Assembly (NCBI RefSeq): GCF_002113885.1
Contig: NW_018479853.1
Coordinates: 1 to 64,000, forward strand
Direction of reading: 5' to 3'
From: Mizuhopecten yessoensis
Taxonomy: Eukaryota
Length of the DNA: 64,000 nucleotides
Made by a program: the position numbers. Shown here in pieces: positions 1-48,000 of the stretch; positions within the stretch are counted from its first letter, which is position 1; each line of letters starts with the position of its first letter.

Positions 1-3000
1 TTCAGTTATTTTATTTGTACAAACAAGACACATCTTTTTTTAAAAATTAACAATTAGATATAGATGTTGCATGTTATATTATTAGCTTTTTGGTATTGTA
101 CAATGACAGTTGAAATTCATTTGAAAATATTCATAATTTGTTGTTAATTCCACCCTAAAATACGTTAATACTATCTGTCCTAACAACACACACATTTGTT
201 AATTCTACCTGTCCTAACAAGACACAAATATGATAATTCTACCTGTCCTCACAACACACAAATATCATAATTTTACCTGTCCTAACAGGACACATATTTG
301 TTCATTCTACCTGTCCTAACAAGACACAAATAGGATAATTCTACCTGTCCTTACAACACACAAATATCATATTTTTACCTGTCCTAACAAGACACATATT
401 TGTTGATTCTACCTGTCCTAACAAGACACAAATATCATAATTCTACCTGTCCTAACAACACAAATATGTTAATTCTACCTGTCCTAACAAGACACATATT
501 TGTTGATTCTACCTGTCCTAACAAGACACAAATATCATAATTCTACCTGTCCTAACAACACACATGTTTGTTAATTCTACCTGTCCTAACAAGACACAAA
601 TATGTTAATTCTACCTGTTCTAACAACTTAAATATTTGTTAATTCTACCTGTCCTAACAACACACAAATATCATAATTCTACCTGTCCTAACAACACACA
701 AATATGTTAATTCTACCTGTCCTAAACATTCCGTTTTTCTTATGATGAATTCTGCAATTGTCTGCAAACTAAGGCAGGTGTGAAGATGTGATGGCTTCTA
801 CAGTTTAATTATATCTCGTGGTGTTGCTCCACGTATTTCTGGTACAGCACTGAGTGATAGTTAAACAATTGTATCTTTTGCAAATGATTTGGTATCATTT
901 CATTCTCATAGTTTGGAAAAATTCATGTGTTTATAATATGTGTGTATATGCTGTCAACCATCTTTAGGTTATATGGCCCGTATGGGCAGAGGGGAAATAG
1001 AGGAAAAAATATAAAATGTTGTACAAATTAAAGGATATAAACCAAATTTGTTCTAGAGCATCTTTTAATTTGGACAAAGGGGACTCAAGTTTGCATAAAG
1101 ATAGGGTGTTGATGGTTTTTTTTTTATATACTTTTGACAAACAATTGGCAATATGAATTTCAACAAATCTTTCATAAGTGCCCTATAGTAATCACAGTGT
1201 CTGTCTGTATGTCTGCCTGTCCGTCAGCAATTTTGTTTCCGGAGATTATCTCGGGACTCCAAAAGGCCGAACTTAAACTTCACGTAGTGATACAGTGTGA
1301 TACATATAGATGTGCAAAGAACCAGGAGTTTCACAATTTAATCAGGTCAAAGTCAAGGTCGCTGTTTCTAAAAAATGAACAGTTGGACTATACTGTCAAA
1401 AACACATTATATGACCCTCAAAAGGCCAGATTTTGGAGAACGTTTTGTATGACATAATGAAGCAAAGTTGGTCATAATCAAACAAGAAGTCTACTTACCA
1501 AAGGTCAAGGTCATCGGGTCAAAGGTTAATTATAACATGTTTGTCTTAACTTGTGAACATTTTGTTATAACATTATGAAGCAAATTTGGTAATAATTAAT
1601 TCGGGGTCTGCGTATGCAATTAGTAATCATGATGTCTATCTATCCTCTGTCCGTCTGTCCTTCCGTTTGTCTGTTATCACAGAATTACATTCCAAGATGT
1701 CTGTCACATAATTACCTTCCAAGATGTCTATCATATAATTACCTGCCAAGATGTCAGTCACAGAATTACCTGCTAAGATGTCAGTCACAGAATTACCTGC
1801 CAAGATGTCAGTCACAAAATTACCTGCCAGCAAGGATGTCAGTTACAGAATTACCTGCCAGCCAAGATGTCAGTCACATAATTACCTACCAAGATGTCAG
1901 TACTGAATTACCTGCCTGCCAAGATGTTAGTCACATAACTACCTGCCAGCCAAGATGTCTGTCACAGAATTACCTGCCAAGATGTCAGTCACAGAATTAC
2001 CTGCCAAGATGTCAGTCACAGAATTACAGGCCAAGATTTCAGTCACAGAATTACCTGCCAGCCAAGATGTCAGTCACAGAAATACCTGCCAAGATATCAC
2101 TCACAGAATTACCTGCCAAGATGTCAGTCACAGAATTACCTGCCAAGATGAAAAATTGAAGTTCAATGGGTTGGAAGCTGTTCCAAACGCGGTGTTGAAT
2201 GTGACGGTGTCGGTGTCATTGAAAACGTAGGATTCTTCTCTGACCAAGGAACACTGACTACAAAGAAATAAAGAGTGTGATATTAACTTAGGTACAATAT
2301 TTCTATTAATAAAATACAACGTCATGCAATATAGCTGTTACAAAAAAAATAGTTTTCTATTTTTAACCTGATATCGTGAAAATCTTACTTTTCCGTTTAG
2401 ATACATTTTATTGTATAGAATATATTTTGATATACAGTTCATGTTATAAAGAAAATTAATAAGATATCCGATATTAAGATATTACATATCTGTCATGAGA
2501 TATCGTTCATATTACACATGTATATGGAATATCTAATAAAGTGTATGTCTCATTATCATATTATATATGATATAGAAAATAGCTGATGTAATAAAGGAGA
2601 TATAATCAGCATTAACATTGCTCCTTGCAATTTGGGTAAATTTGACATGCAACGGTGTCGTTGACATCAAATGGAAATGTTCCTGAAATGTTTGTGTCTA
2701 CCTGGATGCCGGCTGCTGGTTCAGACAGATGAGAAATTGTGGGTCGCACTGGTTTCTACGACAGTTTGTCATAAGGAAGTGATCACAGCACTGTCCAGAG
2801 GCAAGCTGCTGAGTGGGGTTGTCATAAGCCAGAAGTCTCAATACCCCCGTCCCTCCTGGACAGACAGCCTGCGGATATCAGATACTTATAATTAAATACA
2901 TTTTATATACATTGAAAGGACGTTTGAAATAAAATATCATTTGTCGATATTAACGGTGTTACAAACTGTTGGTGGAAACAGTTGATATGCGCCCCTTTAA

Positions 3001-45000: not shown

Positions 45001-48000
45001 AAGTAAGTCCTAAATTCTGAAGGGGGTTCCCACATGGGTCACCTCTTACGGTTACGATACATGCGGTGGGTAACAGTAGGCTATTCTTTTCTCAATCCCC
45101 GACCTGCAGGTGTGTAGAGTTTGGTACCAAACAGTCATTATTAAATGTGCTTACACACAGAAACAATTAATAATAACCAAACGTATAGTAAAATGATTCC
45201 AAAAAATCTATAATGAGCTTACATACAGATGAGATGCACCAATAAACCATTACAAGGCAAACATACAATAGATAGTCACCAATTAACCCTAACAAGGCAA
45301 ACATACAATAGAGACTCACCATCAACCATTACAAGGCAAACATACAATAGATAGTCACCAATTAACCATTACAAGGCAAACATACAATAGAGAGTCACCA
45401 ATTAACTATTACAAGGCAAACATACAATAGATAGTCACCAATTAACTATTACAAGGTAAACATACAATAGATGGTCACCAATTAACCATTACAACGTAAA
45501 CATACAATAGATAGTCACCAATTAACTATTACAAGGCAAACATACAATAGATAGTCACCAATTAATCATTACAAGGCAAACATACAAATATAGAGTCACC
45601 AATTAACCATTACAAGGCAAACATACAATAGATAGTCACCAATTAACCATTACAAGGCAAACATACAAATATAGAGAGTCACCAATTAACCATAACAAGG
45701 CAAACATACAATAGATAGTCACCAATTAACCATTACAAGGCAAACATACAAATATAGAGTCACCAATTAACTATTACAAGGTAAACATACAATAGAGAGT
45801 CACCAATTAACCATTACAAGGCAAACATACAAATATAGATAGTCACCAATCTACCATTACAATGCAAACATACAAATAGAGAGTCACCATCAATCATTAC
45901 AAGGCAAACATACAATAGATAGTCACCAATTAACTATTACAAGGTAACCTTACAATAGAGAGTCACCAATTAACCCTAGCAAGGCAAACATACAATAGAT
46001 AGTCACCAATTAACCCTTACAAGGCAAACATACAATAGAGACTCACCATCAACCATTACGAGGCATACATACAGATGAGATGCACCAATAAACCATTACA
46101 AGGCAAACATACAATAGATAGTCGCCAATTAACCATTACAAGGCAAACATACAATAGAGAGTCACCAATTAACCCTAGCAAGGCAAACATACAATAGATA
46201 GTCACCAATTAACCATTACAAGGCAAACATACAATAGATAGTCACCAATCAACTATTACAAGGTAAACATACAATAGATAGTCACCAATTAACCATTACA
46301 ATGCAAACATCCAATAGAGAGTCACCAATTAACCCTAGCAAGGCAAACATACAATAGATAGTCACCAATGTACCATTACAAGGCAAACATACAATAGAGA
46401 CTCACCATCAACCATTACGAGGCAAACATACAAATATAGAGTCATCAATTAATGTTACACCAAACATACAAATAAGTCACCATTTTTCTAGACATTTTCT
46501 TCAAGTTGGTAAGTATGGATTATGAAAAGTTCCTTTTCACACAACCAATAAGATTTTCTGTGACGTTTCGATGACTAATACGATATGTACTCTGTCATCT
46601 TCATCAGACAAATTACCGGTGAAGACAAATTGATGTCGATTCGACTACGCTGGTAGTGTATGTACAATAGTTGTTATATATGTTCCAAAATGACTCGATT
46701 AAGCTAAACTCTCATAGGCTCTCGCACATCTATCACCAAGTATTAAACAAAGGGCAGCTAAATCGAGTCATTTCGGAACATATATAACAACTATTGTACA
46801 TACGCTACCAGCGTAGTCGAATCGACATCAATTTGTCTTCACTGGTAATTTGTCTGATGAAGGTGACAAGGTACATATCGTACTAGTCATCCAAACGTCA
46901 CATAGAAAATTGTATTGGTTGTAAAAAAGAACTTTTCATAATAAATAAGTCACCAATTGATCATTACAAGACAAACATACAAAGAGAGGTTTCGATTTAT
47001 CGACAAACAAGTAGAAATAATTATTAATCACAGAAAAATTACTCAGGTTTTCACTTACCTTGCTGATTCCGTATATTAAGTGAAAGATAAAGCACCAACC
47101 CATCTCAACAGCTCTTACGTTAGATAAGACGAACACAGGAACACATTTATAGTTAGCGTATGTCAACGATTCCAAGGGCAGTGCTCAGAGCTACAAATGT
47201 AAAACTGTTTCTGATAAAGGAACGATCTGCCATGTGTGACGTCGAATTGGGTTATACAAAGTGGGGTTCCCCAGCTTGTTCTATGAAGGTAAGAGATAAG
47301 AAATAATACATGTATATCTGTAGTCATCGCTTACCACTTGTGGAGTCACAATGCATAGTACTATACATACCACAAAGTAAACAACACTTTGATCCAGTAA
47401 GCATACTAAATAATAGCCACCTCCAACCATACGTACTATATCAGGAATGCTAAGAGGTCTACCTTTAATAGAACATACATGTATGTCTCTGATAAAACAT
47501 ACATGTATGTCTCTGATAAAACATACATGTATGTCTCTGATAAAACATACATGTTTCTCTTTAATAGTGCATAAATGTATGTCTTTAATAAAACATGCAG
47601 ATGCAGATTAACTTTAAAAGAATGTACGGTGATATCTTAAGTAGAACATACAGAGTGGCGTTCTACAGCAAGAAATTTCGGGAGTGTTTTGTTCTTTTGC
47701 CAACAAAATACAACGCTCGCCAAAAACGTTCGCGAAGACATTTAAACGTTAACTCACTAGAACACCAGACATGCAAGAGGGTGGGGTAATATTGGTTTTG
47801 AGTATTTAATCACCCTTGTCTTAAAACGATCATATTTGGACAAAGAAAACGAACAAAATATACGGAAAATATGAAAAAGGAAGGTCTTTTTCTGAAGAAA
47901 TATTTCTACGGTTGTTCTTTTGTCCTTCTTAATATTTTCGGAATTTTTGTTTTTACATATTTGTGTCCGTTATACAGATCCTTCGCATACAAAACACTCG

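What the first reader, a model, noticed from the sequence alone, without database searches (positions are those of the whole stretch)
2140..47430. Cluster of three divergent, minimal Notch-ligand-like paralogues
Seen: genes A, B and C lie on the same strand and share exon phases and MNNL motifs; B and C have DSL plus a single EGF. Established: canonical Delta ligands have about 6-9 EGF repeats and Serrate/Jagged more. The paralogues are highly diverged, which points to an old lineage-specific expansion that may act as Notch modulators or decoys, or in non-Notch recognition (inference).
Basis: partly seen in the sequence, partly recalled or inferred. Interest (0 to 1): 0.68.

Follow-up and report, generated by a model that had tools for sequence, protein, structure and literature searches.

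The report
Three minimal Delta-like ligand genes
The window holds three diverged same-strand copies of a very short Notch-ligand-type gene: one intact membrane form on a mucin-like stalk, one shorter copy with no membrane anchor, and one cut off by the window edge. They are new members of an already described class, the "Delta-like" proteins.

Summary
Three paralogues lie on the minus strand, with GT-AG introns and the same exon phases.

- **Gene B (28579-22381):** 11 exons and 1770 nt, open throughout. It encodes a signal peptide, an MNNL/C2 start (Pfam 30.4 bits), DSL (27.0), exactly one ordinary EGF (30.7), a 144-residue exon that is 49% Ser/Thr, a transmembrane helix and a 67-residue tail with six Lys.
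- **Gene C (47103-~30391):** it keeps DSL (all 9 PDB hits are Notch ligands) and one EGF. It has lost 4 of the 5 cysteines of the first MNNL exon. Its exons 3 and 4 are not significantly similar to B's. It has no membrane anchor. About 63% of it is minisatellite.
- **Gene A (3214-2140):** only three exons lie in the window, so its EGF number is unknown.

No missed EGF exons were found in B or C. Neither gene has a DOS motif. The Notch-binding DSL loop is three residues shorter than in solved ligands.

B meets the published definition of a lophotrochozoan "Delta-like" protein, so this is a new member of a known kind. Function was not tested. No eukaryotic genome collection was available.

The parts
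3167..3214 (-). Gene A exon 1: ATG plus a hydrophobic signal-peptide-like 16 codons
   Evidence: donor GTGAGT, phase 0; KD 2.03 over 10 residues
2702..2868 (-). Gene A exon 2: N-terminal part of MNNL/C2
   Evidence: Pfam MNNL 30.7 bits, profile positions 5-50 of 157; 22 of 48 identical to B e2, z 23.8
2140..2257 (-). Gene A exon 3: second C2 exon, the last A exon in the window
   Evidence: phase 2->0; similar to B e3 with z 9.7; no Pfam hit on its own; no e4-like ORF further left
28526..28579 (-). Gene B exon 1: ATG plus an 18-codon signal-peptide-like segment
   Evidence: KD 2.53
28153..28316 (-). Gene B exon 2: MNNL/C2 start with 5 Cys
   Evidence: Pfam MNNL 30.4 bits; the e2 profile hits only Jagged-1/-2 in the PDB, 3 of 3, E 0.022-0.041
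27582..27696 (-). Gene B exon 3: middle of C2 (inferred)
   Evidence: phase 2->0; paralogous to A e3; no Pfam or PDB hit on its own
26939..27102 (-). Gene B exon 4: end of C2 (inferred)
   Evidence: phase 0->2; no Pfam, PDB or Atlas hit on its own
26260..26381 (-). Gene B exon 5: DSL, first five cysteines
   Evidence: Pfam DSL 27.0 bits; the e5 profile hits DLL1 at 1.2e-7, then Jagged-1/-2, Serrate, Delta and DLL4
25581..25706 (-). Gene B exon 6: last DSL cysteine plus five cysteines of the single EGF
   Evidence: Pfam EGF 30.7 bits; the profile resembles Notch EGFs and the later DLL1 EGFs
24367..24801 (-). Gene B exon 7: sixth EGF cysteine at residue 3, then a Ser/Thr-rich mucin-like stalk
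   Evidence: 70 of 144 residues are S/T, with 4 N-x-S/T sites and 1 Cys; phase 1->1
23832..23961 (-). Gene B exon 8: juxtamembrane region, no known family
   Evidence: no Pfam hit
23363..23459 (-). Gene B exon 9: juxtamembrane region, no known family
   Evidence: no Pfam hit
22989..23146 (-). Gene B exon 10: acidic linker plus transmembrane helix
   Evidence: best 19-residue KD window 2.67
22381..22585 (-). Gene B exon 11: 67-residue cytoplasmic tail and stop. Its end lies inside a 39/51-bp tandem repeat.
   Evidence: 6 K and 3 R, ends ...VNIAST, no ATEV; TRF array 22152-22471
47059..47103 (-). Gene C exon 1: ATG plus a 15-codon signal-peptide-like segment
   Evidence: KD 2.05
43861..43991 (-). 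Gene C exon 2: degenerate MNNL start, 1 Cys left, donor GTTAGT
   Evidence: no Pfam hit; z 9.6-9.8 against A2 and B2; 17-column gap over the Cys-rich loop
42741..42849 (-). Gene C exon 3 (tentative)
   Evidence: ranks 1st-2nd of 79 phase-compatible candidates, 42-43 against 39; not significant by sequence, z 0.8-1.1
41375..41523 (-). Gene C exon 4 (probable)
   Evidence: ranks 1st of 57 phase-compatible candidates, 30 against 19; z only 1.6
36516..36637 (-). Gene C exon 5: DSL
   Evidence: Pfam DSL 21.6 bits, below the 24.2 cut-off; 9 of 9 PDB hits are Notch ligands; 48% identical to B e5
34431..34556 (-). Gene C exon 6: last DSL cysteine plus the single EGF
   Evidence: Pfam EGF 22.7 bits; 51% identical to B e6
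30391..32220 (-). Gene C terminal exon, unresolved. There are 20-21 repeated copies of an e7-type acceptor junction (first exon base from 32220 down to 30455). Each gives the sixth EGF cysteine and a tail of 3-199 residues ending in a stop. No transmembrane segment.
   Evidence: the junction is 21 of 25 identical to B's e7 junction
32223..34481 (-). 62-bp minisatellite made of the last 46 nt of C e6, its donor and 16 nt of intron; 36 donor copies
1677..2150 (-). 27-bp minisatellite whose first unit spans the A e3 donor
   Evidence: 12 junction copies at up to 2 mismatches

Best explanation
The window holds a tandem, same-strand family of three diverged DSL-family (Delta/Serrate/LAG-2) ligand genes of the "Delta-like" kind.

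Gene B is intact. It encodes a 589-residue type I membrane protein with a Notch-ligand head (signal peptide, C2/MNNL, DSL, one ordinary EGF). The usual rod of EGF repeats is replaced by a Ser/Thr-rich, presumably O-glycosylated stalk and a short juxtamembrane region. A transmembrane helix and a Lys-rich tail follow.

Gene C is a shorter and more eroded copy with the same head. Its C2 start has lost its disulphide loop. It has no stalk or anchor, so if it is expressed it is secreted. Gene A has the same 5' structure but leaves the window.

Inferred mechanism: B displays the C2-DSL-EGF head at a distance from the membrane and engages the animal's Notch receptor, in trans or in cis. It has no DOS motif, and its DSL contact loop is shortened and substituted. 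It is therefore more likely a weak, co-factor-dependent or inhibitory ligand than a Delta equivalent. C would act as a soluble competitor or modulator.

What is shown: gene structure, domain identity, domain count, anchor. What is inferred: Notch binding, stalk glycosylation, secretion of C, any signalling outcome.
For: - Gene models: all junctions are AG/GT, frames are open, and phases are identical in the three genes. B totals 1770 nt, divisible by 3, and ends in a stop.
- Pfam, exon by exon: 6 of 17 exons hit. These are MNNL (A e2 30.7, B e2 30.4), DSL (B 27.0, C 21.6) and EGF (B 30.7, C 22.7).
- PDB profiles: e2 hits only Jagged-1/-2 (3 of 3). For e5 the top 10 of 17 hits are all Notch ligands, with DLL1 at 1.2e-7. 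C e5 alone gives 9 of 9 Notch ligands.
- Single EGF: the sixth cysteine sits at residue 3 of B e7, giving the C5-x8-C6 spacing. There is 1 Cys in e7, 0 in e8, 1 in e9 and 0 in e10. No other EGF or Cys-rich ORF lies in B's introns.
- Stalk, anchor and tail are described.
- No DOS motif: the regex is false, and B and C each have only 6 EGF cysteines where the motif needs 8 (motif from PMC2504490). The e6 profile scores -3.5 and -6.6 bits on the DLL1 stretch just after its DSL, against 12-22.6 bits on later repeats.
- DSL loop: there is a 3-residue gap against "RPRdd.FGH" of DLL1 and Jagged-1. At the Jagged-1 face residues F199, R201, R203, D205, F207 (PMC3415683), B has S, R, L, gap, L and C has Y, R, K, gap, Y.
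- C has no anchor: B e7-e11 have no paralogue elsewhere in the window. All 20 candidate C terminal exons stop after 3-199 residues.
Against: - No expression data, so every exon boundary is a prediction.
- e3 and e4 of every gene have no Pfam, PDB or Atlas signal on their own. The C2 fold is inferred from e2 and from position.
- C e3 and C e4 are not significantly similar to their B and A counterparts (z 0.8-1.6; 161-435 of 2000 shuffles reach the score).
- C's DSL is below the Pfam cut-off. C has lost 4 of 5 e2 cysteines, uses a weaker GTTAGT donor, and is about 63% tandem repeat (sum arrays over its span). All of this also fits a dying gene.
- B keeps only 1 of 5 residues of the conserved Jagged-1 DSL face, which argues against ordinary Notch binding.
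- Signal peptides and the transmembrane helix were judged by hydropathy only.
- Spliced proteins were not joined, so there is no whole-protein HMM score, fold or tree.
Confidence: 0.6

Rival explanations
1. Only B is a working gene. C, and possibly A, are decaying duplicates (pseudogenes or gene relics) whose open exons are leftovers. The "secreted decoy" does not exist.
For: - C e2 has no Pfam hit and keeps 1 of 5 cysteines.
- C e3 and e4 are not significant by sequence.
- C's DSL is below the Pfam cut-off.
- No e7-e11 paralogues were found for C.
- C's 3' end is buried in arrays with 36 donor and 20-21 acceptor copies.
- About 63% of C is tandem repeat.
- A has no further exons in the 2.1 kb left of e3.
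Against: - C's e1, e2, e5 and e6 are open with AG/GT sites, and their phases and lengths (122 and 126 nt) are identical to B's despite only about 50% identity. This is not expected of long-dead DNA.
- C's DSL face is closer to the canonical one than B's (Y, R, K, Y against S, R, L, L).
- Every repeated acceptor copy restores the sixth EGF cysteine in frame.
- A may simply continue beyond the window.
Confidence: 0.3
2. The genes use a Notch-ligand-type head for something other than Notch, for example cell adhesion, self/non-self or microbe recognition at a mucosal surface. B would then be in effect a small transmembrane mucin.
For: - B retains 1 of 5 conserved DSL-face residues, has a 3-residue loop deletion and no DOS motif.
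- Half of B's largest exon is Ser/Thr.
- The paralogues diverge quickly.
- The DSL family is reported as expanded and rapidly differentiating in bivalves (PMC8166818, passages seen).
Against: - C. elegans DSL ligands also lack DOS and still signal through Notch receptors. DSL-1 has one EGF (PMC2504490; PMC3415683).
- The C2-DSL-EGF order is so far known only from Notch ligands (my knowledge).
- No positive evidence for another partner.
Confidence: 0.2
3. They are ordinary Delta orthologues, and the remaining EGF exons were overlooked.
For: Gene A cannot be judged, since it leaves the window after e3. Short exons can escape ORF scans.
Against: - In B the EGF closes at the start of e7. The next 1.8 kb encode the stalk, juxtamembrane region, transmembrane helix and tail with the frame kept.
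- Of 126 minus-strand ORFs of at least 28 residues scanned across A and B, only one has an EGF hit. Of 137 scanned across C, only one has an EGF hit above the cut-off.
- C's e6 is followed only by minisatellites up to B's promoter region.
- No ATEV end.
Confidence: 0.03

Closest known systems
"Delta-like" proteins of lophotrochozoans (Gazave et al. 2017, PMC5356439; passages seen)
   Same: Gene B shows the signal peptide, MNNL, DSL, fewer than 7 EGFs, transmembrane helix and intracellular domain. Loss of EGFs and of the ATEV end is described as the commonest variation. Such genes are reported as having no traceable orthology to the bilaterian ancestor.
   Different: B has the extreme of one EGF, plus a 144-residue Ser/Thr-rich exon in place of the EGF rod. 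C has no anchor.
C. elegans DSL ligands: DSL-1 (secreted, one EGF) and LAG-2/APX-1 (PMC3415683 and PMC2504490; passages seen)
   Same: DSL-only ligands without a DOS motif and with very few EGFs. Both a secreted and a membrane form exist side by side. The proposed dependence on separate co-ligands or a modulatory action would apply here too.
   Different: No orthology is implied. The window genes keep a recognisable MNNL start (A, B) and carry a mucin-like stalk (B).
Mollusc Delta2 and the bivalve DSL-family expansion (Sci Rep 2021, PMC8166818; passages seen)
   Same: Lineage-restricted duplicated Delta-type genes, some lacking the transmembrane domain by early termination. The DSL family is described as expanded, with rapid differentiation of DSL+EGF genes.
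   Different: Delta2 keeps the Delta-type EGF series up to the membrane region. The window genes have one EGF. That the organism is a mollusc is unverified.
Vertebrate DLL3 (PMC2504490, PMC2064846; the second seen in the search listing only)
   Same: A divergent DSL ligand without DOS that does not behave as an activating ligand.
   Different: DLL3 has several EGFs and no mucin stalk. It is unrelated in origin.
Human F7 intron 7 minisatellite (PMC1557585; abstract seen)
   Same: Its first repeat unit spans the exon-intron boundary, so the true donor is followed by identical pseudo-donors. The most upstream site is used.
   Different: Here the same arrangement is seen at four donors and one acceptor within one small gene family, with up to 36 copies.

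Membership tests
Delta-like protein (definition of PMC5356439) | Signal peptide | tested here: inconclusive
   Hydrophobic 15-18-codon first exons that begin with ATG in A, B and C (KD 2.0-2.5). No signal-peptide predictor was available.
Delta-like protein (definition of PMC5356439) | MNNL/MNLL (C2) domain | tested here: met
   A e2 30.7 bits and B e2 30.4 bits against a cut-off of 22.5, but only profile positions 2-50 of 157 are covered. e3 and e4 give no signal on their own. Not met for C e2 (no hit).
Delta-like protein (definition of PMC5356439) | DSL domain | tested here: met
   B scores 27.0-29.7 bits against a cut-off of 24.2. C scores 21.6-22.3, below the cut-off, but 9 of 9 PDB hits are Notch ligands.
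Delta-like protein (definition of PMC5356439) | At least one but fewer than 7 EGF repeats | tested here: met
   One EGF in B and one in C. A is unknown.
Delta-like protein (definition of PMC5356439) | Transmembrane domain and intracellular domain | tested here: met
   B e10 has a KD of 2.67 over 19 residues and is followed by a 67-residue tail. Not met for C, where no candidate terminal exon has a transmembrane segment. A is unknown.
Canonical Delta | Nine (5-9) EGF repeats | tested here: not met
   One EGF in B and in C. The numbers for Delta come from PMC5356439 and PMC3415683.
Canonical Delta | DOS motif in the first two atypical EGFs | tested here: not met
   The regex from PMC2504490 is false on each exon. 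There are only 6 EGF cysteines. The e6 profile scores negative on DLL1's first EGFs.
Canonical Delta | C-terminal ATEV (PDZ-binding) motif | tested here: not met
   B ends ...VNIAST.
Canonical DSL ligands (Delta and Jagged) | Conserved DSL face (Jagged-1 F199, R201, R203, D205, F207) | tested here: not met
   B has S, R, L, gap, L. C has Y, R, K, gap, Y. Both have a 3-residue deletion in the loop (residues from PMC3415683). Assigning the numbers to the letters is my inference.
Functional Notch ligand | Binds Notch EGF11-12 and changes Notch signalling | not testable with these tools
   This needs the joined ectodomain and the animal's own Notch.
Secreted DSL ligand of the DSL-1 type | DSL plus one EGF with no membrane anchor | tested here: inconclusive
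   C has DSL plus one EGF, and all 20 candidate terminal exons end without a transmembrane segment. The 3' exon actually used is unknown, and C may not be expressed.

The most novel reading that the evidence does not exclude
B and C form a lineage-born ligand and decoy pair. B would be a force-bearing Notch ligand in which an O-glycosylated mucin stalk does the spacer job of the EGF rod, under a head stripped to C2-DSL-one EGF. C would be its secreted antagonist. C's C-terminal tail length would be set by which of the roughly 20 repeated acceptor copies is used, so minisatellite copy number would tune the protein.
Probability: 0.12. Interest if true: 0.65.

Novelty: new member of a known kind. 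Interest (0 to 1): 0.4.

Why it matters
If B binds Notch, it would mark out roughly the smallest natural membrane-bound ligand head (C2, DSL, one ordinary EGF, no DOS). It would also show that the EGF rod can be replaced by a mucin-like stalk. That bears on how much of a ligand is needed for binding and for force transmission.

If it does not bind Notch, it is a case of a Notch-ligand head being re-used for another recognition task.

Either way the result adds a cleanly resolved example to the poorly characterised Delta-like and DSL expansions reported in lophotrochozoans. It is not a new kind of system.

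Tried and rejected
- **Long six-frame translations to Pfam.** Replaced by stop-to-stop ORFs and then by exact exons.
- **e3 and e4 profiles against the PDB.** Only unrelated hits: 2 designed "Scone" proteins and 1 GTP pyrophosphokinase at E 0.26.
- **ESM Atlas on B e4.** No usable hit. The second Atlas call was not used.
- **Further A exons left of 2140.** None found.
- **Stalk, transmembrane and tail paralogues for C, and transmembrane-like ORFs between C and B.** None convincing. One 61-residue ORF at 29600-29782 has a hydrophobic stretch but no link to C.
- **A fourth paralogue elsewhere in the window.** None.
- **First null for arrays touching exon junctions.** Observed 6, random mean 5.5, P 0.5. 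Rejected as a null because random arrays could swallow whole exons. The second null gave P 0.016.
- **Alternative reading of C e2** (ancestral exon running on to a stop, with a cryptic donor). Considered, and set aside in favour of the in-frame 17-codon deletion, which keeps the donor position and phase. Neither reading is proven.
- **Poly(A) signal by eye after C's last stop.** No AATAAA seen in the 400 nt read. Not decisive.
- **Rfam and tRNA scans.** Nothing.
- **Not run.** Structure prediction, fold search and complex prediction, because single exons of 32-54 residues would not fold meaningfully and joining exons was barred.
- The search for homologous proteins, the search of protein representatives, the metagenome and viral contig collections, and paper supplements.

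Full report
**Material.** The window is 64,000 nt with one N at 19535, which was left untouched. GC is 32-47% in 2-kb windows. At least 29 tandem-repeat arrays are present. The organism could not be identified, because no eukaryotic genome or protein collection was open.

**Finding the genes.** I listed stop-to-stop ORFs and compared them with each other. Three sets of paralogous pieces appeared, all on the minus strand:
- an MNNL-like ORF at 2701-2877, 28152-28319 and, weakly, 43842-43994 (45.8% over 48 residues, E 3e-14; 46.4% over 28 residues, E 0.002);
- a DSL ORF at 26186-26521 and 36397-36651 (45.7% over 46 residues, E about 1e-13);
- an EGF ORF at 25567-25872 and 34306-34623 (53.5% over 43 residues, E 4.5e-16).

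Pfam scans gave the following results.
- Of 126 minus-strand ORFs across genes A and B, four had relevant hits: MNNL at 30.5 and 30.3 bits, DSL at 29.7 and EGF at 30.2. The other ORFs had no Notch-ligand domain.
- Of 137 ORFs across gene C, one had EGF at 24.6 bits and one had DSL at 22.3, below the 24.2 cut-off. None had MNNL.

**Gene models.** Reading the DNA gave exons with AG/GT borders and open frames.
- Gene A: e1 3214-3167, e2 2868-2702, e3 2257-2140.
- Gene B: eleven exons from 28579 to 22381, 1770 nt in all, ending in TAG.
- Gene C: e1 47103-47059, e2 43991-43861, e3 42849-42741, e4 41523-41375, e5 36637-36516, e6 34556-34431.

The phases are the same in all three genes: 0->0, 0->2, 2->0, 0->2, 2->1, 1->1.

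This leaves the whole-domain tests open.

**Exon-by-exon family tests.** Six of 17 exons hit Pfam: MNNL in A e2 (30.7 bits) and B e2 (30.4), covering profile positions 2-50 of 157; DSL in B e5 (27.0) and C e5 (21.6); EGF in B e6 (30.7) and C e6 (22.7). The other eleven gave nothing relevant: A e3, B e3, B e4, B e7-e11, and C e2-e4.

Profiles of aligned paralogous exons were searched against the PDB.
- e2 hit Jagged-1 and Jagged-2 only (3 of 3, E 0.022-0.041).
- e5 gave 17 hits. The top ten were all Notch ligands: DLL1 at 1.2e-7, then Jagged-1, Serrate, Jagged-2, Delta and DLL4. The other seven were unrelated (E 0.19-3).
- C e5 alone gave nine hits, all Notch ligands, best Jagged-1 at 3.9e-5.
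- The e3 and e4 profiles found nothing related. The ESM Atlas found nothing for B e4.

The C2 identity of e3 and e4 is therefore inferred from their position between the MNNL start and the DSL.

**How similar the copies are.** Identity to B is 43% (A) and 41% (C) in e2, 29% and 19% in e3, 18% in e4, 48% in e5 and 51% in e6. Shuffle tests gave:

| Pair | z | Shuffles reaching the score (of 2000) |
|---|---|---|
| A2-B2 | 23.8 | 0 |
| A2-C2 | 9.8 | 0 |
| B2-C2 | 9.6 | 0 |
| A3-B3 | 9.7 | 0 |
| B5-C5 | 19.1 | 0 |
| B6-C6 | 17.9 | 0 |
| A3-C3 | 1.1 | 325 |
| B3-C3 | 0.8 | 435 |
| B4-C4 | 1.6 | 161 |

C e3 and C e4 are therefore not supported by sequence alone. Among all AG..GT open segments with the right phase between C e2 and C e5, C e4 ranks first of 57 (score 30 against 19). 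C e3 ranks first or second of 79 (42-43 against 39). I call e4 probable and e3 tentative. Phase was a selection criterion for both.

**Gene B in detail.**
- e6 carries the last DSL cysteine and five EGF cysteines, with spacings 6, 4, 5, 9 and 1.
- The sixth EGF cysteine is residue 3 of e7, which gives the usual eight-residue C5-C6 gap.
- The rest of e7 is 49% Ser/Thr (70 of 144 residues) with four N-x-S/T sites.
- e8 and e9 match no family.
- e10 has an acidic linker and a 19-residue window with KD 2.67.
- e11 starts with a basic stop-transfer stretch, has six Lys, ends ...VNIAST (no ATEV), and runs into a 39/51-bp repeat.
- No further EGF exists. e7 to e10 contain two cysteines in all, and no ORF in the introns scores as EGF.

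The single EGF is of the ordinary type. Its profile best matches Notch EGFs (2.2e-17) and the later DLL1 repeats (12-22.6 bits). The DLL1 stretch right after its DSL scores -3.5 and -6.6 bits. The DOS-motif pattern of PMC2504490 is not met.

**The DSL contact loop.** Compared with DLL1 and Jagged-1, both B and C lack one residue between the first two cysteines and three residues in the "RPRdd.FGH" loop. A review names Jagged-1 F199, R201, R203, D205 and F207 as a conserved face needed for trans-activation and cis-inhibition (PMC3415683, passages seen). Placing those numbers on the printed alignment (my inference) gives S, R, L, gap, L in B and Y, R, K, gap, Y in C. B keeps one of the five. C keeps one and has three conservative replacements.

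**Gene C's ends.** C e2 has a 17-column gap over the cysteine-rich loop and keeps one of B's five cysteines. Its donor is GTTAGT.

Downstream of e6 come two arrays. The first is a 62-bp array (32223-34481) built from the last 46 nt of e6, the donor and 16 nt of intron. It holds 36 donor-junction copies at up to 2 mismatches. The second is an 84-bp array (30442-32227). Its unit carries an acceptor and the first bases of an e7-type exon, 21 of 25 identical to B's e7 junction. There are 21 copies at up to 2 mismatches.

From each of 20 such acceptors, the phase-1 frame gives the sixth EGF cysteine at residue 3 and then a tail of 3-199 residues before a stop. The most upstream candidate is 32220-32156 and the most downstream is 30455-30391. 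None has a hydrophobic segment. B's e7-e11 have no paralogue anywhere else in the window.

C, if expressed, is therefore predicted to be secreted. Which acceptor is used is unknown. Arrays cover about 63% of C's 16.7 kb (my sum). C's last possible stop lies 1.8 kb upstream of B's ATG. B's stop lies 19 kb upstream of A's ATG, with a plus-strand EF-hand gene in between.

**Comparison with what is known.**
- PMC5356439 (passages seen) defines "Delta-like" as signal peptide, MNLL, DSL, fewer than seven EGFs, transmembrane domain and intracellular domain. It reports such genes in Platynereis, Helobdella, Schmidtea and Lottia, commonly without ATEV and without traceable orthology. B meets each feature that I could test.
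- PMC8166818 (passages seen) reports 138 DSL-family genes in lophotrochozoans, bivalve DSL expansions, rapidly differentiating DSL+EGF genes and a mollusc Delta2 lacking the membrane anchor.
- PMC3415683 states that EGF numbers run from 16 (Jagged) and 5-9 (Delta) down to one in the secreted C. elegans DSL-1.
- PMC2504490 states that the ten C. elegans DSL proteins lack DOS, and proposes separate DOS co-ligands or inhibition by DSL-only proteins.

The kind is therefore known. One literature search for a DSL ligand with a mucin-like stalk returned 172 papers holding at least 3 of the 4 terms. None of the 12 listed contained "mucin-like". That is weak evidence that this detail is undescribed. 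The supplements that list the catalogued genes were closed.

**Verdict.** The locus is a tandem family of minimal Delta-like genes:
- B is intact and membrane-anchored on a mucin-like stalk.
- C is an eroded, anchor-less copy, either a secreted form or a relic.
- A is incomplete in the window.

Notch binding and any modulatory role are inferred, not shown.

Noticed in passing
window 1677-2150; 27337-27583; 36413-36582; 32223-34481; 30442-32227; 22152-22471: Minisatellites begin at, and copy, splice junctions of these genes. Copies found: A e3 donor (12), B e3 donor (6, one being the real donor), C e5 donor (78-bp unit, 2.2 copies), C e6 donor (36), a C e7-type acceptor (21). B's coding end also lies in a repeat. 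Six of 14 arrays inside the genes partly overlap an exon, against 2.6 expected (P 0.016). A cruder null gave P 0.5. A human precedent is the F7 intron 7 minisatellite (PMC1557585, abstract seen).
   Followed up: partly
window 16183-19534 (N at 19535): A 62-bp satellite of 54 copies is organised as a 248-bp higher-order unit with 99% matches. It shows strong G-over-C and A-over-T skew (GC skew 0.47-0.48). It ends at the window's single N and lies between plus-strand EF-hand exons.
   Followed up: no
window 13121-13399, 13965-14189, 20314-20721 (+): Exons of an EF-hand gene lie on the opposite strand between genes A and B. Pfam EF-hand_7 scores 25.5 bits, below the 30 cut-off. PDB hits to calmodulin-type proteins reach only E 0.17-1. 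The repeated D-x-D-x-D-G loops look reticulocalbin/calumenin-like, but that is from recall and untested.
   Followed up: partly
window 37378-39827 and 39828-40815: Two abutting arrays of the same 32-bp unit in opposite orientation (77.5 and 30.9 copies) form a 3.4-kb inverted minisatellite inside C's e4-e5 intron.
   Followed up: no
window 63680-64000 (-), 63141-63695 (-), 57656-57889 (-): ORFs with YADD or FADD motifs look like fragments of non-LTR retrotransposon reverse transcriptase. None has a Pfam hit at E up to 0.001. The identification is by eye only.
   Followed up: no
window 36413-36582: The 3' half of C's DSL exon plus its donor is duplicated just downstream. The copy keeps an open frame and its own GTAAGT, giving a possible alternative or decoy DSL end.
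   Followed up: no
alignment A4: The alignment tool shows the first residue of B e5 as M because it reads the leading TTG as a start codon. The standard translation is L. This has a minor effect on the e5 profile.
   Followed up: yes
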